Below the pieces are notes generated by a model. The model saw only the letters and a program-made list of their open reading frames with translations, did not search any database and was not told the DNA's origin. The position numbers were made by a program, and so were the translations under genes. This document shows positions 27,037 to 35,073 of a stretch of DNA of 64,000 bases, piece by piece. The stretch comes from a virus (Duplodnaviria; Caudoviricetes): IMG/VR virus record IMGVR_UViG_3300032227_000993; one strand, 5' to 3'. Numbering within the stretch: the stretch's first letter is position 1; each line of letters starts with the position of its first letter.

Positions 27037-27363
27037 TTAGAAAGGGCTAAAACTACTGCCGCAACCGCAGGTAGTTGTGGCCTGCATGCCTGTTATTGTA
27101 AAGGAAGATCCATATGTGTCCTCTTTGTAGTCTACGGTAGCACCTTGTAAATAGCCGCCACTCATAGAATCCACAAGAACATGGATTCCGTCTTGTTCAA
27201 AGTCCCAATCATCTTCGGCTTGTTCTTCGTCTAGAGTAAATCCAGTCTGCATGCCTGAACAACCACCACCTTGAATAAACACCCGTAATTTAAGTTTAGG
27301 GTTCTTTTCTTCTGCTAAAATGTCTTTAATCTTGGTTGCTGCTGATTGTGTTATAGTAATCAT
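27037..27363 (-). CDS. erpA: A-type Fe-S carrier ErpA/IscA (HesB family)
   Basis: [12 protein letters not shown] and TTCGCGSSF; all three Cys present. Confidence 0.92.
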
Positions 27364-27364
27364 A

Positions 27365-27913
27365 TTAGATCCGTTCGGAACATACGTCCCAGTTGATAAT
27401 CTTCCAGATGTTATCTAGGTATTTTTCTTTGTCCCACTGGTATTCAAGGCTCCATGCATGCTCCCACCAGTCAACCAGTACACAGATATCTGTCCTAACC
27501 TGATGATTCGGGATGGTTTTAATCGTGCCCGATGTGCTAAGATATACCCAACCTGATCCCTGGATGGCCATGGCCACTTTTTTAAATTCAGCTTTGAAGT
27601 CTTCATATGTTTTAAAGTTTGATTCGATAAGTTCCAACACAGCGCCTCGTGGCTTGTTAGCACCTTTGGGTGCTTGTAGCTGTGGGAAAAACTTGTTGTG
27701 TAGGAAACTACCAGCACGATTAAAAGTGGCATCACCTTCGCCGGCATTGTAGCGTTTGGCGTAGCCTTTGGCTAGATGCTCGTAGTGATACTCGATTGTG
27801 GCAGCACTCATCACAGGCTCCAAGTCCTTGTGAGTGTAGGGCAATGGTGTAGTTTCCAGTTTGGCTGGAACTGTGCTGGCTTCTACTATGTTTATTGTTT
27901 CGCGGATATCCAT
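27365..27913 (-). CDS. sod: Fe/Mn superoxide dismutase (compact)
   Basis: LPY..DLEP, HYEH, LHN, QGSGW, DWWEHAW; all four metal ligands appear present. Confidence 0.9.
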
Positions 27914-27921
27914 ACTATTAC

Positions 27922-28140
27922 TTATCTACGGCGACTGATTCGGCCACGAGTTAAATCGTAAGGGCTAATTTCTACTTCTACAACGTCACCTTCTAATACC
28001 TTGATGTTATTTTGACGCATTCTACCAGACAAAGTAGCAAGAATTGGGGCTTCAAAATTCTCCAGCTTGACCCGATAATTGGTGTTGCGTAATACCTCAG
28101 TGATTACTCCGTCCAGTTTAATAATATTGTCTTTACTCAT
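27922..28140 (-). CDS. infA: Translation initiation factor IF-1
   Basis: 72 aa; YRVKLEN...LSGRMRQNNIKVLEGDVVEVEISPYDLTRGRI. Confidence 0.93.
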   Translation of the reverse strand: MSKDNIIKLDGVITEVLRNTNYRVKLENFEAPILATLSGRMRQNNIKVLEGDVVEVEISPYDLTRGRISRRR

Positions 28141-28155
28141 TAATATTACTTATCA

Positions 28156-28551
28156 TTAACGGCGCATACTACTAATATCTTTGGCTTCATCATCGCTAAA
28201 CACCGGTACAGCATTGCTTTTGTGCATGGTACCTATACCTTTAATACGGGTGCCTGTGTAGGTATTATCTTTGACTGCTACACACGGAACCCAACCAGTA
28301 TCGCGACTGGCAATATGCGGAGTTTCACGTCCAGGAGGAGTTTTGGGCATGAAGTCCGTCATAGTTTTGCGTGGAGCATTGTGCGGGCCTGTGCTGAACT
28401 TAGGAGCCATCTTGTCAAACTCAACCAGCTTGCGATCCCATTCAGCTTGTCGTTTTTGTGCTAACTTCTTGGCCTCACTGCTGGCCCACTTACGCTTGCC
28501 TTTTTGTTTGCCTGTGGTACTAAGCCACGGACCTTCAAGATGCATAGTCAT
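28156..28551 (-). CDS. Conserved T4-like phage hypothetical protein
   Basis: YTGTRIKGIGTMHKSNAVPVF motif; RBS GAGGAG before ATG 28551. Confidence 0.65.
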   Translation of the reverse strand: MTMHLEGPWLSTTGKQKGKRKWASSEAKKLAQKRQAEWDRKLVEFDKMAPKFSTGPHNAPRKTMTDFMPKTPPGRETPHIASRDTGWVPCVAVKDNTYTGTRIKGIGTMHKSNAVPVFSDDEAKDISSMRR

Positions 28552-28555
28552 AGTA

Positions 28556-29308
28556 TTACTCCTCAACCGTTGGACAGTTAGTCATGTTAATGGTGGTTAA
28601 ATGCTCGTTTGGTACACACAACATATTTTGGTAATCAACAATGTAATAAGAATAATTTTCAATGGGACTCAGTGCCTGCTTGATTTCTTTGGCGCCTGTG
28701 ATAAAGTATTCTACCCAGATGTAAGGGCGATACTTGGCAATAGATCCGAGTCCACCTGTCAGGGCTGGTATTTCAAAGCCCTCAACATCTAGCTTGATAA
28801 AATCCAACCTTGGTAACGCCATAGCATCGATACTGATAATGTCCACTACACGATCATTCATCCACCCATCTTCATCCACTGTAGTTTCATCCGATAACGA
28901 AACTGTACCAAAGTCTTGGGCTACACTATAATCTACCGCAGGTAATTGAGCTACACCTGGTTCTTTGCCAAGTCCATAATTATGTAAGAATACATTGTCT
29001 AGTCCATTAAGGGCTAGGCTGCCACTCAAGGCGTTGAACAATTGACGCTGAGGTTCAAAGCCTATGACTCTTCCACCTCGCGGTTTAATGCGCTGAGCCA
29101 CAGGCACAGTAAAGAATCCAATATTGGTACCACCATCCACCACAACACAATCATTGGGTAAGGTAGCTATGATGGCAAAGATATTGGCCAGTTCATCTTC
29201 GATGTGAGTGCGCCCGGTCTTGACCAGGGCCTCAGCTTGAAATGCGCAGGTACGGGCCACAATAAACTTGCCGTACACGCTGTCCAGTACTACAAAGTTA
29301 TCAATCAT
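28556..29308 (-). CDS. FkbM-family methyltransferase
   Basis: VVDGGTNIGFFT, VIGFEPQ, LDFIKLDVEGFE. Confidence 0.88.
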   Translation of the reverse strand: MIDNFVVLDSVYGKFIVARTCAFQAEALVKTGRTHIEDELANIFAIIATLPNDCVVVDGGTNIGFFTVPVAQRIKPRGGRVIGFEPQRQLFNALSGSLALNGLDNVFLHNYGLGKEPGVAQLPAVDYSVAQDFGTVSLSDETTVDEDGWMNDRVVDIISIDAMALPRLDFIKLDVEGFEIPALTGGLGSIAKYRPYIWVEYFITGAKEIKQALSPIENYSYYIVDYQNMLCVPNEHLTTINMTNCPTVEE

Positions 29309-29336: not shown

Positions 29337-29366
29337 ATTTTAACAAATTACGAATTATTTGTCAAC
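29337..29366 (-). promoter_or_regulatory. Sigma70-type promoter
   Basis: TTGACA-N18-TAAAAT. Confidence 0.65.
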
Positions 29367-30038
29367 CTCTCCGTAGAACAAGTGTTGTCCTGTGCGCTTT
29401 ATGTATGTTTTGGACTTGGCCCAAATAGGACGGATTCCAGCAGCATGAAAGTACATGGCCTTGTTGTATTTGGCGTGATATTCCGGATACTCGCCGTCGG
29501 CTAAGCGTTGGGCAATTTCGCGACTTTCTATCCAGCGTTCGTCATCGGACTTGGGCTTTTTTGCGTAGCCTGAACATACCCAAGAGAATTGGCAAACTGG
29601 AACCTGTTCGGTAACTGTGTGTACAGTTGTTACTTTTTCTGGAGGACCAAAATACCCTACACGGATCATTTCAGTTTTCTTGACTTCCTTGGTTTTGGTA
29701 ACAACTGTGCGAGCCTTGACAACATCACAAACTGATTTACCAAAGCGTGGATCTTGGGCACGGTTGAGAGTAACAATGCCTACGGCGATTTTGCCTTCTG
29801 TGGGTTCTCCACGTGACTCATAAAATATGTTACGAGCCAAACACTCTACATCTCGGTCTGACAGGAATGGAGTGGCGATTAAGTTAACAGTACGCTCTAC
29901 AAAACTTGTAGCTTGTTCTACCACTTGACCGCTAAATGTTGTGTTGTCTGCCAACACAATCGTTTCTTGTTTTACTTCTGCTGCTTGAACTACGGTAACG
30001 CCTACTGCTAATAATAACGATAATAAGATATTCTTCAT
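29355..30038 (-). CDS. Cell wall hydrolase (SleB/Hydrolase_2 family) with signal peptide
   Basis: CLARNIFYESRGE, AVGIVTLNR, CQFSWVC, AMYFHA; RBS GAGGA before ATG 30038. Confidence 0.9.
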   Translation of the reverse strand: MKNILLSLLLAVGVTVVQAAEVKQETIVLADNTTFSGQVVEQATSFVERTVNLIATPFLSDRDVECLARNIFYESRGEPTEGKIAVGIVTLNRAQDPRFGKSVCDVVKARTVVTKTKEVKKTEMIRVGYFGPPEKVTTVHTVTEQVPVCQFSWVCSGYAKKPKSDDERWIESREIAQRLADGEYPEYHAKYNKAMYFHAAGIRPIWAKSKTYIKRTGQHLFYGEVDK

Positions 30039-30044
30039 TGTCGT

Positions 30045-30310
30045 TCCTCTACAGCAATACTGTGCTGTTCCAGCGGAGCCCCCAATGGGCGCATTGACAA
30101 TAATGGTATGTGGAGAATCGTTAGATAACGAGACCTCGGCCTTCTTTGGCATTTACTCTTTTGTGTATCAACATCAATACACAATACCATATTGTCAACG
30201 AAGAGACGTTCCGACGGTCTCTTTCGAAACAGACAACAAAATCATTGTCTGGTGCGTGACTTAGATTTGTATTCCGGACAAGCCCGTCCGGCACTACTGT
30301 TATTCTATTA
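30045..30310 (-). ncRNA. Candidate highly structured 5' leader RNA upstream of the cell wall hydrolase
   Basis: At least six stems found by eye, including an 18-bp long-range helix (30094-30112 with 30180-30198); TAAGTA hexamer at 30318-30323. Confidence 0.6.
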
Positions 30311-30390
30311 CTAATAATACTTAGTGAGTTTTTACATTCATTGTATATTAAGTTAATGTTTTGTTAATTTTTTACCATAATATGCTACTA

Positions 30391-30972
30391 TTATCTATCT
30401 TCGGCCTTTAATGCGGCCCACATAGCGGTTTTTTCTTTAAGGTCAGCTTCTAACTTACGATATTGGTCGCCTACCTCTTTTAATTCTGTCCATTCTTTTT
30501 CTAATTCAGTGTTTGGAACTAGTATGTTTAATCTTTCTTCCAAGGCTTGTAGTGTGTCTACTAAACTTTTTCCGTTGATGTTGATGTCGGCATCTTTACC
30601 TTCAAGGTTTAACTTGCCGCCGGTTATGGTATTACTAGCCCAAGGGCTTCCGCCCCCAGTACCAGTGGTATATGTGTATCCAGATCCAGTACTAAGGTTG
30701 TTAGCGGAAATAGAAGTGTTGGCGTACCTGGGCGCCACTGTAACTGATGTTGGTGTGTAAGTAGCTGTAGCGGCTGGGCTACTGATAATTACTGTACCCG
30801 AACCTGCGTTAGGAGGTACTGCCCCGTAGCCTGGGTGTAAGGATCCAGACTTTATTGCTGGCAATGGTCCAGCGGTTATGGTTCCTGTGTAGTAGCCTGG
30901 GTCTTCTGTGGTCACAGTTTCTGTTCCGTCACAGTTGTAGCTAATGTCGTATTTTTTTTCCGTAAGATCCAT
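30391..30972 (-). CDS. Hypothetical low-complexity Thr/Gly-rich protein with C-terminal coiled coil
   Basis: ORF; KDADININGKSL...ERLNILVPN module. Confidence 0.6.
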   Translation of the reverse strand: MDLTEKKYDISYNCDGTETVTTEDPGYYTGTITAGPLPAIKSGSLHPGYGAVPPNAGSGTVIISSPAATATYTPTSVTVAPRYANTSISANNLSTGSGYTYTTGTGGGSPWASNTITGGKLNLEGKDADININGKSLVDTLQALEERLNILVPNTELEKEWTELKEVGDQYRKLEADLKEKTAMWAALKAEDR

Positions 30973-31118
30973 GTGCCATCTTTGTTATCAATCCATTCAA
31001 GTGTGTCGCCGACTTCCCAGCCGGCGGCTTCGCACACTTCATCGCCAAGATCCAAAATTAAGTCACCTGTTGCTGGATCCTTGACAATAGTTCTAGTCCA
31101 ATTACTTGGCTGTGGCAA
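30912..31118 (-). CDS. AbrB/MazE-like DNA-binding protein
   Basis: DPATGDLILDLGDEVCEAAGWEVGDTLEW swapped-hairpin pattern. Confidence 0.65.
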   Translation of the reverse strand: MPQPSNWTRTIVKDPATGDLILDLGDEVCEAAGWEVGDTLEWIDNKDGTWILRKKNTTLATTVTEQKL

Positions 31119-31293
31119 GTGCTTCTTTCTCAGCAGTAATTTCTTTACGACGCTCTTTGATGCCTTTGCTCATTTCTTGTAAGGCCTTGCGAGCACGGGC
31201 GGCTGCAGCTTTTACACCTTTGCCTGTAAACTTTTCGTTTTCTGCGATGTAATTATTAAATGCTGTTACGATTGCGTCATGTTGTTGTGACAT
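31102..31293 (-). CDS. Histone H1-like (Hc1-type) basic protein
   Basis: KFTGKGVKAAAARARKALQEMSKGIKERRKEI. Confidence 0.65.
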   Translation of the reverse strand: MSQQHDAIVTAFNNYIAENEKFTGKGVKAAAARARKALQEMSKGIKERRKEITAEKEALATAK

Positions 31294-31333
31294 TGTTATT
31301 TCCTTTATAATTAAAATGTGTACTACAAGTTTA

Positions 31334-31361
31334 ATTATACACGATTTTTATCGTATGTCAA
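31334..31361 (-). promoter_or_regulatory. Sigma70-type promoter
   Basis: TTGACA-N16-TATAAT. Confidence 0.65.
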
Positions 31362-31370
31362 ATTTTTAGG

Positions 31371-31613
31371 CTAGAACGAAATGTGTCGTTTTAGGTAAGT
31401 ATCCCATATTAGGATATTATCCCAAGATTGGTTCCAGGTAACCACAAAGATCATTAGTGTATTATGATCAAAGATGTGCATCTTGTTGTCGTCAACTCGA
31501 CATTGTATTGACTTACTGGTATTAGACCATTTTTGTAAGTGATTGCGGGCTTCTGTGTCCCGCATGATGATGGTGTACAATGGGTCACCATTCTTATATA
31601 TTGGCAAGGTCAT
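31371..31613 (-). CDS. Hypothetical protein
   Basis: ORF directly after upstream stop. Confidence 0.55.
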   Translation of the reverse strand: MTLPIYKNGDPLYTIIMRDTEARNHLQKWSNTSKSIQCRVDDNKMHIFDHNTLMIFVVTWNQSWDNILIWDTYLKRHISF

Positions 31614-31616
31614 TAA

Positions 31617-32375
31617 TTATTTACGCTCAATATCTTCTTCTCGGCAGTTGGTACCATATTGTATTTCTATTATGCGGCAAGGAGATCCAAATGGATTAGT
31701 TAACTGATGCCACGCGCCTACCTGTATTTTGTATTCTTGGTGTGTGCTTAATAGCATTGGCGGTAATTGGTATCCATCTTCGGTAATGGTATTAACTGCG
31801 CAGGCACCTTCCTCTACTATCCAGTACTCAGCTCGTTCATTGTGCTTTTGCATACTCAAGCTCTTACCTGAGTCTACTGTAAGTTCTTTAACTTTCATGC
31901 CAGGTGCTTCGTGTAGTACTCGATAGTAACCCCATTGACGTTCGGTCTTGGGTGCTTTCCATTCTTGTAAAATCCAACTGCTACTATTGGCCTTGTCCTC
32001 ACCGCCTACCCCAAATACAAATTCTACACCAGGTACACTCATTTCTGGAATGTTGTCTTGTGTACGATCACCGCCATTGGCAAAAATAATATGCGCCTCT
32101 GGATAATGAGCGCGAACCTGTTCCAACAAGTGACAAGCGGTACCGTCACTGTCATCAAAAGTGTAAACTTCTTCAACTGCGGCTAGATTGTTGACTACGC
32201 ATAAGCGTTCAGTCCAGGGCATGAAAGCACGGCCCTTTTTACGGGCCAGCCACTCGTCGCTGTTAATACCTACAATTAACATATCGCCCAGCAAACGTGC
32301 TTGTTTGATCAATTTAATGTGACCTGAGTGTAACGGATCGAATCCGCCACTACATACTACAATTTTTGTTTTCAT
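31617..32375 (-). CDS. Bifunctional cytidylyltransferase-like (HIGH) plus mannose-6-phosphate-isomerase-type cupin
   Basis: SGGFDPLHSGH, IFANGGDR; ERQWGYYRVL, SLSMQKHNERAEYW, WHQLTN, IIEIQYG. Confidence 0.85.
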   Translation of the reverse strand: MKTKIVVCSGGFDPLHSGHIKLIKQARLLGDMLIVGINSDEWLARKKGRAFMPWTERLCVVNNLAAVEEVYTFDDSDGTACHLLEQVRAHYPEAHIIFANGGDRTQDNIPEMSVPGVEFVFGVGGEDKANSSSWILQEWKAPKTERQWGYYRVLHEAPGMKVKELTVDSGKSLSMQKHNERAEYWIVEEGACAVNTITEDGYQLPPMLLSTHQEYKIQVGAWHQLTNPFGSPCRIIEIQYGTNCREEDIERK

Positions 32376-32617
32376 TAATGTATAATTTTATTAGGACTTT
32401 CGTCTGGTAAAGAATTTAGTGCTTTGATGTACTTAGTAAACTTTTCATCTAATTCAATGATGTCATCGTCTTGGTCGGCCGCTCTTTCATTGCTCACGCC
32501 AATCAATCGCATGAGTCCGCCCATATGGATGTAATTAATGCCGTGCTTTTGTAGCACCAACATAATCTCCATGATTAGTTTGCGAGCTTCCCACTCTAGA
32601 TCTTTATCATCTGCCAT
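32375..32617 (-). CDS. Hypothetical protein
   Basis: ATG 32617, 5 nt after TAAATT. Confidence 0.55.
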   Translation of the reverse strand: MADDKDLEWEARKLIMEIMLVLQKHGINYIHMGGLMRLIGVSNERAADQDDDIIELDEKFTKYIKALNSLPDESPNKIIH

Positions 32618-32657
32618 ACTATAATTTAGCACAGAAGATTTTAAAGATAAAAATTGG

Positions 32658-34073
32658 TCAGCGGGCCAGCAAGTCCGGTAGTACTAGTTTATGTACTGTA
32701 ACTGTAGATGTGGCCACTTGCTGTGGTTCTAGGGCTGTTACCTTGGGAGCATTAGCGTCACGCTCAAAGTTACCAGCTACTACTTCTAAGTCCTGTACCG
32801 TTAAGTTGCCGGCCAATTGCTTGAGCTTTAGTGTAGCGGCTAGGTAAGTGTATTTGGCCTGTGCTAAATCTTTCTGGGCTGTAACCAGGACTTTTTCAGC
32901 CAATAGTACATCAACTGAAATACGCTCACCGGCCTGTACACTTTTACGCATGGCCTTGGTTAATTCGCTACCGGATTCAACAGCACGTTCTAATGCTGCT
33001 ACCTTTTGACGGCTGGATACCACTAGGTCATATTGCCGACGTAATTCTGTAATCACACGACTGCGAACAGCTTCTGTATCAGCTTGTGCTTTTTCCCAAT
33101 TGGCATTGGCCTGTTTAGTTAGACCATATGTTTGTCCGCCGTTGCTCAATTGCCAAGTTGCTTGTACACCAACCATGGTGCTGTTGGCAGTTTGGTTAAT
33201 GGTAGAAACATAGTAAGAACTTTGTTGGTTGTATTGCGCAATAGCAGAGATGACCGGCGCATTGTTGCTTATCTGTTTGTTGTATTCTTGTTTGGCCGCT
33301 TCTTCGCTATTTTTGGCCGCAGCAATCTCTGCGTTGTTAGATAACGCTGTGTCTTGCCATTGGTCAAATGTCATTGCGACCGGAGAAACTTTAAAGTTTG
33401 TGCTTAATTTTTTAACTTCGGCAGCCGAGTTTAATTTAACACCCATCATTGCTTCTAGTTTACGACGAGCATTTTCTAAGTTGTCTTTGGCTTCGATAAC
33501 CTGTACATCAGCTAACTCAAAACTTGCCTTGGTTTCTAGCACTTCGGTCACTGTGCCATCACCGGCCCGAAGTCTACGTTCATTGATGGTCACTTGCTCT
33601 CGGTACGCATCACGTTGTGCTGTGTAGTAAGTAATTTGATCACGATAAAATAATACTTCTGTGTAGGCCTGTGTAGTACGCACCAATAACTCTTGTGAGT
33701 TGTGTACAAACTTGGACCGGGCCATGTCTGCTTGTGCGTAGCCTTGTTTGGCACTGGCCCAGGCATTCAAGTTGATCAATGCTTGTGTAAGTTGTACACC
33801 ACCGTTGGTACTTGGATAGGTCATGTTATTTGTTGAATAACCTGTTTGACTAATCCTAGTGGCGTTGCTTGCTTGATAAAAGTTAGCAGATATCTGTGGT
33901 AACAAACCAGCACGACCAATAATCTTGTTAGCATCTCCGGCTTCAAACTCTTTGGTCGCTACCTTGTATGCTGGATCGTTCACAAGGGCTAGGTCATATG
34001 CCTGCATCAAATCTAGGGCATTGGCATTAGACATTAGCAACGCGGTTGATACAGCTAACAGTGACTTCTTCAT
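32658..34073 (-). CDS. prtF: TolC-family type I secretion outer-membrane protein (PrtF/AprF-like)
   Basis: Signal peptide; LMQAYDLALVNDP, GRAGLLPQIS, two-repeat OEP pattern, GERISVDVLLAE. Confidence 0.92.
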   Translation of the reverse strand: MKKSLLAVSTALLMSNANALDLMQAYDLALVNDPAYKVATKEFEAGDANKIIGRAGLLPQISANFYQASNATRISQTGYSTNNMTYPSTNGGVQLTQALINLNAWASAKQGYAQADMARSKFVHNSQELLVRTTQAYTEVLFYRDQITYYTAQRDAYREQVTINERRLRAGDGTVTEVLETKASFELADVQVIEAKDNLENARRKLEAMMGVKLNSAAEVKKLSTNFKVSPVAMTFDQWQDTALSNNAEIAAAKNSEEAAKQEYNKQISNNAPVISAIAQYNQQSSYYVSTINQTANSTMVGVQATWQLSNGGQTYGLTKQANANWEKAQADTEAVRSRVITELRRQYDLVVSSRQKVAALERAVESGSELTKAMRKSVQAGERISVDVLLAEKVLVTAQKDLAQAKYTYLAATLKLKQLAGNLTVQDLEVVAGNFERDANAPKVTALEPQQVATSTVTVHKLVLPDLLAR

Positions 34074-34074
34074 A

Positions 34075-35073
34075 TTATTCCTCGCGTAGTGCTGAATGAG
34101 CACGGTCTACAACAGGTTTAAACAAATAGGATAATAATGTGCGTTCACCAGTTACCACAAACACTTCAGTTGGCATACCCGGACGTACTTGATTACTTGC
34201 TAATAACTTCTTACCAGCAGGAGTTACCTCTACTTGTATCTTGTAATAAGACATTCCTGACTTGGGATCTTGTGTAGTATTGGCCGCTACCCTAGTAACT
34301 GTTGCTGGAATACTAGGAGTGGTACTTTGATTAAATGCCGGAAACATTACTTCAACTGGAAGACCCTTGTGTACCTTGTCAATCATGTTGGTCGGCAAGT
34401 GTGCTTCTACTACCAAGGGCATATTTTGCGGGACCACTTCCATTACCTTGGTACCTGCTTGGATAACTGCGCCTGGATTGTACACTTCCAAATTGGCCAC
34501 TGTACCACTCACCGGAGCCTTGAGTTCTGCGTTGGCAAGATCAAAGTCACTAGCTGGTAGTTTGGCCTGTTCTTCGGCCAAGGCTGAACTGACCTGCGAA
34601 TAGTTGCGTTCTGCGTCAATCAACTTGTTGCGTGACATATAACCGTCTTTGGCCAGTTCACGATAACCTGCTAACTGTTCTTTGATCAAGACCAGTTGGC
34701 GTTGTTTACTAGCAATAGATTCACGGAGTGCTGTGTTCTGTGCTGTTTGCTGTGTAGCGTTCATACGAGCTAGGACTTGTCCTGCCACGACTTGGTCGCC
34801 TTCTTTGACCAGGATTTCTTTAACGATGCCGCCTTGTGCTGACTGGATAGTTTGACGATGACCGTCTGTGATGACTACGCCTGCGGCTGGTACACCTTTG
34901 TCTAACGGAGCAAGACCTGCCCACAGCATAAAGCCGCCAAATCCTACAGCTACAACCAACATACCAACACGAGCGTAATGTGTTTCATCTTGCTCGATAT
35001 CTTTGTTAACAGTAGCTTCTGCTACCACATTAAACTTGTGTTTGAGCCAGTTTTTAGATTGTGTTTTTAACAT
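34075..35073 (-). CDS. prtE: HlyD-family type I secretion membrane fusion protein (PrtE/AprE-like; short)
   Basis: N-terminal TM (FGGFMLWAGLAPLD), GGIVKEILVKEGDQV, LKAPVSGTV, RPGMPTEVFVVTGERTLLSYLFKP. Confidence 0.92.
   Translation of the reverse strand: MLKTQSKNWLKHKFNVVAEATVNKDIEQDETHYARVGMLVVAVGFGGFMLWAGLAPLDKGVPAAGVVITDGHRQTIQSAQGGIVKEILVKEGDQVVAGQVLARMNATQQTAQNTALRESIASKQRQLVLIKEQLAGYRELAKDGYMSRNKLIDAERNYSQVSSALAEEQAKLPASDFDLANAELKAPVSGTVANLEVYNPGAVIQAGTKVMEVVPQNMPLVVEAHLPTNMIDKVHKGLPVEVMFPAFNQSTTPSIPATVTRVAANTTQDPKSGMSYYKIQVEVTPAGKKLLASNQVRPGMPTEVFVVTGERTLLSYLFKPVVDRAHSALREE

What the first reader, a model, noticed from the sequence alone, without database searches (positions are those of the whole stretch)
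30045..30310. Densely structured ~270-nt leader upstream of a cell wall hydrolase
Seen (plus-strand coordinates): CCGGAC/GTCCGG (30274-30291); CAGACAA/TTGTCTG (30230-30251); AAGAGAC/GTCTCTT (30201-30223); an 18-bp long-range helix with two single bulges (30094-30112 with 30180-30198) enclosing TCGTT/AACGA; a competing TGTGTAT/ATACACA hairpin that overlaps the long helix; a GCCC/GGGC hairpin (about 30078-30090); and ACAGCA/TGCTGT (30051-30068) abutting the AGAGGA RBS. A TAAGTA hexamer at 30318-30323 could define the 5' end. An in-frame upstream ATG (30152) lies inside the structure. Established: cell-wall-hydrolase genes are frequent targets of cis-regulatory RNAs (c-di-AMP and c-di-GMP riboswitches), and phage lysins are often translationally delayed by RNA structure. 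Inference: a novel riboswitch-like or timing element controlling a muralytic enzyme.
Basis: partly seen in the sequence, partly recalled or inferred. Interest (0 to 1): 0.65.

Follow-up and report, generated by a model that had tools for sequence, protein, structure and literature searches.

The report
Ornate RNA leader of phage endolysin
The long gap before this phage's exported cell-wall-cutting enzyme encodes a large folded RNA that matches no described RNA family, recurs before the same gene in over 100 uncultured lake-phage sequences, and most likely controls when that enzyme is made.

Summary
Window 30039-30323 (minus strand) is the 5' leader of the SleB-type hydrolase gene (CDS 29355-30038).

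- **Recurrence:** 117 viral and metagenome loci carry the element (84 unique cores). Every locus with a readable downstream gene has a SleB homologue (101 of 103), at 20-76% protein identity.
- **Conservation:** the leader is more conserved than the gene and shows no codon periodicity.
- **Structure:** covariation supports at least 8 helices and an H-type pseudoknot next to the ribosome-binding site. Paired cells are 92%, against 29-47% for slid controls, with 25 of 42 pairs changed on both sides. The commonest variant has a second pseudoknot in its 5' domain.
- **Strand:** G-U pairs outnumber A-C by 254 to 58, which places the RNA on the gene's strand.
- **Known families:** Rfam 15 gives no match, so c-di-AMP and c-di-GMP riboswitch membership is ruled out.
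- **5' edge:** an invariant TAAGTA box, probably a T4-type late promoter, marks the 5' edge.
- **Partner proteins:** all RNA-linked SleB proteins carry a signal peptide or membrane anchor.

Best reading: a new family of cis-acting translational control RNA for an exported endolysin. The trigger is unknown. This scan reached the same reading on another genome (e1-5912826).

The parts
30318..30323 (-). TAAGTA box, a probable phage late-type promoter element that marks the 5' edge of the leader. The transcription start is inferred at about 30311.
   Evidence: TAAGTA is found in 107 loci (85 unique), while the sequence upstream of it differs between loci. In relatives the first conserved helix starts about 8 nt after it. 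TAAATA and TAAGTA are enriched within 60 nt upstream of gene starts in this window, at 10 of 29 and 5 of 36 occurrences, against about 1 expected for each.
30039..30311 (-). Whole structured 5' leader RNA of the SleB gene (about 270 nt; the 5' end is inferred).
   Evidence: Fold z = -3.9. The leader aligns to relatives over its whole length. It shows no codon periodicity.
30274..30291 (-). 5'-domain hairpin CCGGAC/GUCCGG. It corresponds to pseudoknot stem S1 (CGG:CCG) of the commoner variant.
   Evidence: S1 covaries in type B.
30230..30251 (-). 5'-domain hairpin CAGACAA/UUGUCUG.
   Evidence: Relatives show compensatory changes, with CGGACAA/UUGUCCG and CGGAU/AUCCG.
30201..30223 (-). P1 hairpin AAGAGAC/GUCUCUU with the invariant loop letters UCGG(A)A.
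   Evidence: 99.8% of cells are paired and 4 of 7 pairs changed on both sides.
30184..30200 (-). 5' arm of the long-range helix P2 and its extension (CGUUGACAAUAUGGUAU).
   Evidence: It pairs with 30092-30109. One position runs through A-U, G-U and G-C across the three variants.
30162..30183 (-). P3 hairpin (UGUGUAU/AUACACA), variable in sequence between relatives.
   Evidence: All 5 tested pairs changed on both sides, and 95.7% of cells are paired.
30130..30161 (-). Near-invariant core: junction AAAGAGUAAAU, the small P4 hairpin (GCC...GGC), and CGAGGUCU.
   Evidence: The 22-29-nt core is kept in all 117 loci, but those loci were found by searching for this core. Infernal scores and the rest of the alignment confirm the hits. 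P4 switches between GGC/GCC and GCC/GGC.
30118..30131 (-). Window-specific insertion hairpin UCGUU/AACGA.
   Evidence: It is absent from L001 and L002 and from all other variants. It is not part of the conserved motif.
30092..30109 (-). 3' arm of the long-range helix P2 (AUACCAUUAUUGUCAAUG).
30078..30090 (-). P5 hairpin GCCC/GGGC.
   Evidence: All 5 pairs changed on both sides, and 91.7% of cells are paired.
30075..30078 (-). CUCC tract directly 5' of the pseudoknot, a possible anti-Shine-Dalgarno sequence.
   Evidence: It is the top predicted partner of the ribosome-binding site in 26 of 75 leaders. It can form 4 or more base pairs with the site in 52% of leaders, against 18% for other 5-mers. 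This is suggestive only.
30059..30074 (-). Pseudoknot stem P6: GCUG (30071-74) pairs with CAGU (30059-62), which lies in the P7 loop.
   Evidence: This stem was not part of the covariance model, yet 89% of cells are paired. Five covarying forms occur: GCUG/CAGU, GGUG/CACU, GCCG/CGGU, GCGG/CCGU and GCGU/ACGU.
30051..30068 (-). P7 hairpin ACAGCA/UGCUGU, which ends just before the ribosome-binding site.
   Evidence: All 5 pairs changed on both sides.
30045..30050 (-). Shine-Dalgarno sequence AGAGGA.
   Evidence: A ribosome-binding site sits at the same place in all loci.
29355..30038 (-). SleB-type cell wall hydrolase gene (227 aa) with an N-terminal signal peptide. It is the regulated gene.
   Evidence: Pfam PF07486, E = 6e-20. 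PHROG 938 'endolysin'. All 88 unique RNA-linked homologues have a hydrophobic N-terminus.

Best explanation
The interval is the 5' untranslated leader of the phage's exported SleB-type endolysin gene. It belongs to an undescribed family of large structured RNAs, with a shared core of about 190 nt and whole leaders of about 270-340 nt.

The RNA starts a few bases after a TAAGTA late-promoter-like box. It folds into a multi-helix core: the P1 hairpin, a long-range helix P2 that encloses P3 and P4 and a near-invariant junction, and the P5 hairpin. It ends in an H-type pseudoknot (P6/P7) that touches the Shine-Dalgarno sequence.

The most likely function is a cis-acting gate on translation of the hydrolase. 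The folded core would set whether the ribosome-binding site is free or is held by the adjacent CUCC tract and pseudoknot, and whether the start codon, which sits in a small hairpin with codons 5-6, is free. A trigger would shift this balance. The trigger is most likely a small molecule or ion that reports the state of the infected cell, and less likely a protein.

The enzyme carries its own export signal, so the time of its translation could set the time of cell-wall attack.

Shown: the RNA family, its fold, its strand, and its fixed link to exported SleB genes.
Inferred: the promoter, the regulatory role, and the trigger.
For: **Recurrence and linkage**
- 117 loci carry the element, with 84 unique cores.
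- 101 of 103 downstream ORFs of at least 60 aa are SleB homologues at 20-76% identity. The other 2 are cut by contig ends.
- Flanking genes differ between loci, with at least 5 upstream and at least 6 downstream families.

**Not coding**
- Column entropy by codon phase is 0.85/0.81/0.81 in the leader, against 0.96/0.88/1.48 in SleB.
- The leader is more conserved than the gene, at mean entropy 0.82 against 1.10.

**Covariation**
- On the MAFFT alignment, 92.5% of cells are paired and 22 of 38 pairs changed on both sides. None of 500 shuffles reached the observed values for four of five measures, and slid controls gave 29-47% paired.
- On the model-based alignment, 25 of 42 pairs changed on both sides. 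This includes pseudoknot stem P6, which the model did not contain.
- In the 5' domain of the common variant, 97.9% of cells are paired, with a second pseudoknot.

**Strand:** 254 G-U cells against 58 A-C cells.

**Single copy:** one hit in the window, at 123 bits and E about 1e-33.

**No known family:** no Rfam match.

**Position relative to translation signals**
- The ribosome-binding site directly follows P7 in all loci.
- Predicted ensembles pair the ribosome-binding site with the CUCC tract in 26 of 75 leaders, and pair the start codon with codons 5-6 in 51 of 75.

**Exported partner**
- All 88 unique RNA-linked SleB proteins have a signal peptide or membrane anchor.
- A distant SleB homologue without the RNA (L006) has no signal peptide and follows a multi-membrane-span, holin-like ORF.
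Against: - No mutually exclusive alternative structure is supported by covariation, so the switch itself is not demonstrated.
- The CUCC-to-ribosome-binding-site pairing is only about threefold enriched over background and cannot covary, because both sides are constrained.
- Mean predicted accessibility of the ribosome-binding site is intermediate, at 0.44.
- No ligand, protein partner or transcript end is known, and no host is cultured.
- The promoter role of TAAGTA rests only on motif position.
- The contrast between exported and cytoplasmic SleB rests on one or two RNA-less loci.
- The loci were collected with a pattern from the conserved core, so more divergent members, or members linked to other genes, could have been missed.
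Confidence: 0.65

Rival explanations
1. The RNA is a protein-binding operator. A phage or host RNA-binding protein would bind the leader and repress or activate SleB translation, with no small-molecule sensing. Candidates are a translational repressor, or a CsrA-like protein that recognises GGA motifs such as the invariant UCGGAA loop of P1 and the ribosome-binding site.
For: - The GGA-containing P1 loop is invariant in 83 of 84 sequences.
- Purine-rich GAGG and AGAG tracts recur in the leader.
- A conserved, very basic 136-aa protein (phrog_27048, function unknown) follows SleB in 27 of 57 loci.
- No alternative-structure switch was found.
Against: - A core of about 190 nt with seven helices and a pseudoknot is far larger than typical protein operators.
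- One member (L065) has GGC instead of GGA in the P1 loop.
- No candidate protein co-occurs in all loci.
Confidence: 0.2
2. The RNA is a constitutive structural leader. It would not switch but would act as a fixed device: an mRNA stabiliser, a ribosome standby or enhancer platform, or a brake that keeps translation of a dangerous exported enzyme low. Many copies use UUG start codons and a start-codon hairpin.
For: - UUG starts occur in about half of the loci.
- A start-codon hairpin is predicted in 51 of 75 leaders.
- No conserved alternative fold was found.
- Predicted accessibility is the same for long and short transcripts.
Against: Near-invariant unpaired junction nucleotides, kept across hosts whose SleB proteins are only about 30% identical, point to a specific binding pocket or tertiary fold. 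That is more than a simple brake or stabiliser would need.
Confidence: 0.1
3. The RNA acts as a molecule in its own right and merely sits next to SleB. It could be a trans-acting small RNA, or a self-cleaving or processing ribozyme that releases the SleB message.
For: - Its size and ornate fold resemble large stand-alone phage-associated RNAs.
- It has its own promoter-like box.
Against: - There is no terminator between the RNA and the gene, and the fold ends 1-3 nt before the ribosome-binding site in every locus.
- The RNA is never found without SleB.
- No known ribozyme model matches.
Confidence: 0.04
4. There is no functional RNA. The region would be a coding sequence (an upstream ORF or an N-terminal extension), a DNA-level element, or chance hairpins.
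For: - About a third of the common-variant copies have an open frame of about 360 nt across the leader.
- In this single window the plus strand folds even better than the minus strand, at z = -6.05.
Against: - There is no codon periodicity.
- The open frame is absent in most copies and falls in different registers.
- Compensatory changes occur in nearly every helix.
- G-U pairs outnumber A-C pairs by 254 to 58.
Confidence: 0.01

Closest known systems
c-di-AMP (ydaO/yuaA) riboswitch and other riboswitches upstream of cell-wall hydrolase genes
   Same: Both are large pseudoknotted RNAs in the 5' UTR of peptidoglycan hydrolase genes. Both are conserved beyond the gene they precede.
   Different: No covariance-model match, even at permissive thresholds. 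The helix layout is different. This RNA is phage-borne. No ligand is known, and control would be at translation, with no terminator.
Translational control of phage T4 lysozyme gene e by mRNA structure together with a late promoter
   Same: Both involve an endolysin gene, a T4-type late-promoter-like box, and RNA structure near the ribosome-binding site.
   Different: In T4 a single hairpin hides the ribosome-binding site in early transcripts, and the late promoter lies inside that hairpin. Here the box lies about 280 nt upstream of a conserved multi-helix fold. Predicted accessibility of the ribosome-binding site and start codon is the same for long and short transcripts.
Pseudoknot riboswitches that end at the ribosome-binding site (preQ1-II, SAM-II, SAM-V)
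   Same: Both have an H-type pseudoknot immediately at the Shine-Dalgarno sequence of the regulated gene.
   Different: Those aptamers are 50-80 nt and include the ribosome-binding site in the knot. Here the knot is the last part of a 190-nt core, and the ribosome-binding site lies just outside it.
Large ornate phage- or metagenome-associated RNAs (GOLLD, ROOL, HEARO)
   Same: All are big, multi-helix, pseudoknotted RNAs known mainly from uncultured sequences, including phages.
   Different: No model match. Those are stand-alone genes, often near tRNAs. This one is always a leader fused to one gene family.
Earlier finding of this scan, e1-5912826 (another genome)
   Same: It describes the same kind of object: a multiply pseudoknotted leader with no Rfam match before the SleB-type endolysin of uncultured freshwater jumbo phages.
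   Different: It is an AI note on other DNA and reports 350-430 nt. It is not independent evidence. My own counts give about 270-340 nt from the TAAGTA box to the start codon.

Membership tests
c-di-AMP riboswitch (ydaO, Rfam RF00379) | Match to the family covariance model | tested here: not met
   No hit at gathering score in the 64-kb window. No hit at E up to 10 in 29900-30500. No hit at E up to 1 in four relatives of other variants.
c-di-GMP-I and c-di-GMP-II riboswitches (RF01051, RF01786) | Match to the family covariance model | tested here: not met
   Same searches, no hit.
Riboswitch (generic definition) | Conserved structured domain with covariation in a 5' UTR | tested here: met
Riboswitch (generic definition) | Consistent association with one gene family | tested here: met
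   101 of 103 downstream ORFs are SleB homologues. Flanking genes vary.
Riboswitch (generic definition) | Expression platform with alternative pairing that covers the ribosome-binding site or forms a terminator | tested here: inconclusive
   There is no terminator. The CUCC tract is the top predicted partner of the ribosome-binding site in 26 of 75 leaders and is threefold enriched, but no covariation is possible at these positions.
Riboswitch (generic definition) | Direct, selective binding of a small molecule | not testable with these tools
   Needs in-line probing or a comparable binding assay.
T4 gene e-type early/late translational lock | A hairpin that hides the ribosome-binding site only in early read-through transcripts, with the late promoter inside that hairpin | tested here: not met
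   The late-type box is about 280 nt upstream of the ribosome-binding site. In 30 loci with an upstream sigma-70-type promoter, predicted unpaired probability is 0.35 (early) against 0.33 (late) for the ribosome-binding site, and 0.23 against 0.22 for the start codon.
Large stand-alone ornate RNAs (GOLLD, ROOL, HEARO, raiA) | Match to the family covariance model | tested here: not met
   No hit.
tRNA or tmRNA | ARAGORN detection | tested here: not met
   No tRNA or tmRNA genes in the window.
Hydrolase_2 / SleB cell wall hydrolase (the regulated gene) | Pfam PF07486 above the curated cut-off | tested here: met
   72.1 bits against a cut-off of 27, E = 6e-20. PHROG 938 'endolysin'.

The most novel reading that the evidence does not exclude
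A phage-encoded riboswitch of a new class that reads a small molecule of the infected cell and thereby sets the moment at which an exported endolysin is translated. The ligand could be a second messenger, a defence-system signal, or a cell-wall precursor. This would be a lysis clock run by an RNA sensor instead of by a holin.
Probability: 0.25. Interest if true: 0.9.

Novelty: new variant of a known kind. Interest (0 to 1): 0.7.

Why it matters
Lysis timing in phages is normally explained by holins and, in a few cases, by simple mRNA hairpins. Here a whole clade of uncultured lake phages keeps a large, doubly pseudoknotted RNA more tightly than the endolysin it precedes. The endolysin carries its own export signal, so its translation could be the step that decides when the cell wall is attacked.

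If the RNA senses a ligand or a protein, it would be a new class of regulatory RNA and a new way for a phage to time lysis. The motif has more than 80 distinct natural sequences and clear covariation, so it is ready for structure probing, ligand screens and structure determination.

Tried and rejected
1. **Known RNA families.** Rfam found nothing at gathering or permissive thresholds, in the window and in four relatives. The best hits were chance matches with E of 0.7 or more.
2. **tRNA or tmRNA.** None found.
3. **Close DNA relatives among cultured phages.** None found. SleB homologues there are at most 32% identical.
4. **Whole-genome search.** No genome is held for this window.
5. **Coding hypothesis.** Long open frames exist in about a third of the common-variant copies. 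They fall in different registers, are absent elsewhere, and show no codon periodicity. Rejected.
6. **The in-frame ATG at 30152 as the start codon.** Not conserved, and it would bury the signal peptide. Rejected.
7. **Genome-collection pattern hits.** The hits in GC-rich bacteria (Devosia and others) score 17 bits or less with the covariance model and lie in coding DNA, so they are chance matches to the 22-mer.
8. **T4 gene e-type early/late lock.** No predicted difference between transcripts.
9. **A 3-bp AGA/UCU helix proposed by RNAalifold, and a small GAU/AUC hairpin in the 5' domain.** Neither shows covariation.
10. **A long-range pairing of CAGCGGAGG with CCUCCGCUG that I first suspected.** It is superseded by P0 and P6, which covary.
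11. **Literature.** Three full-text searches found no description of this motif. The Melnitz phage paper concerns a glutamine riboswitch on a tmRNA gene (PMC9004378).

Full report
**Where and what.** The gene below the finding lies on the minus strand. Its real start is the ATG at 30038-30036, which opens a signal peptide (MKNILLSLLLAVGVTVVQA). The CDS runs to 29355. It is a Hydrolase_2/SleB cell wall hydrolase (PF07486, E = 6e-20; PHROG 938 'endolysin'). The upstream gene stops at 30391, which leaves a 352-nt gap. No whole genome is held for the window. The window carries virion genes, and the related sequences come from IMG/VR viral contigs of up to 176 kb. Earlier notes of this scan call the genome an uncultured freshwater jumbo phage; I did not test that.

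**Observation.** The minus-strand RNA folds better than shuffles, with z = -3.9. The plus strand also folds well, with z = -6.05, so a single sequence cannot assign the strand. Four corrections follow from comparison with relatives:
- The TGTGTAT/ATACACA hairpin is nested beside the long helix and does not compete with it.
- The TCGTT/AACGA hairpin is an insertion specific to this window.
- The ATG at 30152 is not conserved.
- A pseudoknot was missed.

**Relatives.** A protein-guided scan of viral contigs gave five loci whose SleB is 63-76% identical. Their upstream 300 nt aligns with the window in long invariant blocks, with visibly compensatory changes. A 29-nt pattern from the most conserved block found 18 viral contigs. 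All 18 have a SleB homologue just downstream, even where the protein is only about 30% identical.

A looser 22-nt pattern found at least 120 metagenome stretches and 24 genome stretches. Sorting by the flanking motif features gave 117 true elements with 84 unique cores. The GC-rich bacterial hits are chance matches inside coding DNA, at 17 bits or less with the covariance model.

Of 103 downstream ORFs with at least 60 residues, 101 hit the window's SleB. The other two are cut by contig ends. The ORF always starts 79-93 nt after the core, behind a ribosome-binding site. Flanking genes fall into at least five upstream and at least six downstream families. The constant unit is therefore RNA plus SleB.

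**Not coding.** About a third of the commonest variant has an open frame of about 360 nt across the leader. It falls in different registers and is absent from the rest and from this window. Column entropy shows no three-base periodicity in the leader (0.85/0.81/0.81), while SleB shows the usual third-position excess (0.96/0.88/1.48). The leader is also more conserved than the gene, at 0.82 against 1.10.

**Structure.** I wrote the helices by hand on a MAFFT alignment of the 84 cores (A3).
- 92.5% of cells are paired and 22 of 38 pairs changed on both sides.
- 255 cells carry double changes, against 76 in shuffles. None of 500 shuffles reached the observed values for four of five measures.
- Sliding the partners by 1-3 columns drops pairing to 29-47%.

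A covariance model built from this alignment, without the pseudoknot, gave these results (R1):
- It finds one copy in the window (30036-30226, 123 bits, E about 1e-33).
- It finds one copy in each of the 84 loci (90-211 bits).
- It finds none upstream of the distant SleB homologues L006-L008.

On the model-based alignment, pseudoknot stem P6 is paired in 89% of cells, although the model never saw it. The exceptions are one mis-registered variant. P6 occurs in five covarying forms: GCUG/CAGU, GGUG/CACU, GCCG/CGGU, GCGG/CCGU and GCGU/ACGU.

One position of the long helix P2 runs through A-U, G-U and G-C across the three variants. G-U cells outnumber A-C cells by 254 to 58, so pairing is 92.5% on the gene's strand and 86.3% on the other. 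The RNA is therefore read in the same direction as SleB.

**Architecture.** The shared core is P1, then P2 enclosing P3, the junction AGAGUA(A)AUG, P4 and CGAGGUCU, then P5, the P6/P7 pseudoknot, the ribosome-binding site and the start codon.

The region 5' of P1 differs between three variants:
- Type A, which includes this window and about five relatives, has two hairpins there. The second shows compensatory changes.
- Type B, with about 60 unique sequences, has a terminal helix P0 (GAGUAG/CUACUC, covarying to GAACAG/CUGUUC), a hairpin Pa, and a second H-type pseudoknot (S1 CGG:CCG, S2 GGCCAG:CUGGCC). In this domain 97.9% of cells are paired and 10 of 22 pairs changed on both sides.
- Type C keeps P0 with a different sequence.

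**5' edge.** TAAGTA is found in 107 loci, while the sequence upstream of it diverges. P0 begins about 8 nt after it. In this window TAAATA and TAAGTA are enriched just upstream of gene starts, at 10 of 29 and 5 of 36 occurrences within 60 nt, against about 1 expected for each. Earlier notes of this scan read TAAATA as a T4-type late promoter. I take TAAGTA as the probable late promoter of the leader-SleB transcript. This is an inference.

**How it may work.** No terminator lies between the RNA and the gene, and P7 ends 1-3 nt before the ribosome-binding site. Any control would therefore act on translation or on message stability.
- In ViennaRNA ensembles the ribosome-binding site is 44% unpaired on average. 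Its top partner is the (A/C)NUCC tract directly 5' of P6 in 26 of 75 leaders.
- That tract can form 4 or more base pairs with the ribosome-binding site in 52% of leaders, against 18% for other 5-mers.
- The start codon is predicted to pair with codons 5-6 in 51 of 75 leaders, for example UUGAA...UUCAA. The serine there is always UCA in the sequences inspected.
- About half of the genes start with UUG.

None of these features can be tested by covariation, so the switch is plausible but not shown.

All 88 unique RNA-linked SleB proteins have a hydrophobic N-terminus, either a signal peptide or a membrane anchor. The RNA-less homologue L006 has none and follows a multi-span, holin-like ORF. An enzyme that exports itself needs another brake, which fits control at translation. 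This contrast rests on very few RNA-less loci.

**Comparison with what is known.**
- Rfam 15 has no match for any variant. Membership of the c-di-AMP and c-di-GMP classes, and of the large ornate RNAs, is tested and not met.
- The T4 gene e lock is the closest functional analogue. Its defining layout is absent, and long and short transcripts are predicted to behave alike.
- Three literature searches found no description of the motif.
- This scan met the same RNA family on other genomes (e1-5912826, e1-5698839). Those are AI notes that agree with my reading but are not independent evidence.

**Verdict.** This is a real, strongly supported new family of structured RNA, fixed in front of an exported phage endolysin. 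A cis-regulatory role is likely, at about 0.65. A small-molecule trigger is possible, at about 0.25. No experimental data exist.

Noticed in passing
L004, L010, L013, L017 and 26 other loci, about 70-100 nt upstream of the TAAGTA box; window 30340-30367: In 30 of 69 loci a sigma-70-type promoter (TTGAC[AT]-N16-18-TA[TAC]AAT) lies upstream of the leader, with its inferred start exactly 60 nt before the TAAGTA box. The leader may therefore be transcribed from tandem early and late promoters. The window has only a weaker TTAACA-16-TACAAT match.
   Followed up: partly
window 30370-30385 (minus strand), and the same block in type B loci: A short block, CATATTATGGTAAAAA, just after the stop codon of the upstream gene, is shared with distant loci. 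In those loci it follows the sigma-70-type promoter. Its role is unknown.
   Followed up: no
leaders of L010, L022, L048, L061, L149, L169 and others; window 30035-30190: About a third of type B leaders have an open frame of about 360 nt through the whole RNA. It ends at a UGA that overlaps the SleB start (NUGA). The window has a 51-codon version that starts at the conserved AUGG of the junction. There is no codon periodicity. Ribosomes reading through the fold could still matter.
   Followed up: partly
L005:3712-4266 and L018 (downstream of the first SleB): A second SleB-type gene (185 aa, PHROG 938), with its own membrane anchor, follows the first in some loci.
   Followed up: partly
L017:1356-1664 and 12 other loci: A 103-107-aa ORF with a hydrophobic stretch overlaps the end of SleB by about 40 nt. 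It is a possible holin or spanin partner. It has no PHROG match.
   Followed up: partly
window 28156-29308: In 27 of 57 relatives SleB is followed directly by a very basic 136-aa protein (phrog_27048, function unknown). In this window an FkbM-type methyltransferase gene (28556-29308) sits between the two.
   Followed up: partly
L048 (contig CAZ... / CAITCX010000170.1, 2.4 kb, labelled as an uncultured Dehalococcoidia MAG): This is the only genome-collection hit with the full RNA (201 bits) plus SleB. It is a short contig in a sediment MAG and is probably phage DNA binned by mistake.
   Followed up: partly
window 41517-41610 (+): A weak covariance-model hit (9 bits, E = 0.2). I treated it as noise.
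   Followed up: no
window 27037-28140 and 31102-34103: Neighbouring genes include IF-1, Fe/Mn superoxide dismutase, an IscA-like protein, an Hc1 histone-like protein and a TolC-like protein. This is an unusual set for a phage. Earlier notes of the scan cover a type I secretion system here.
   Followed up: no
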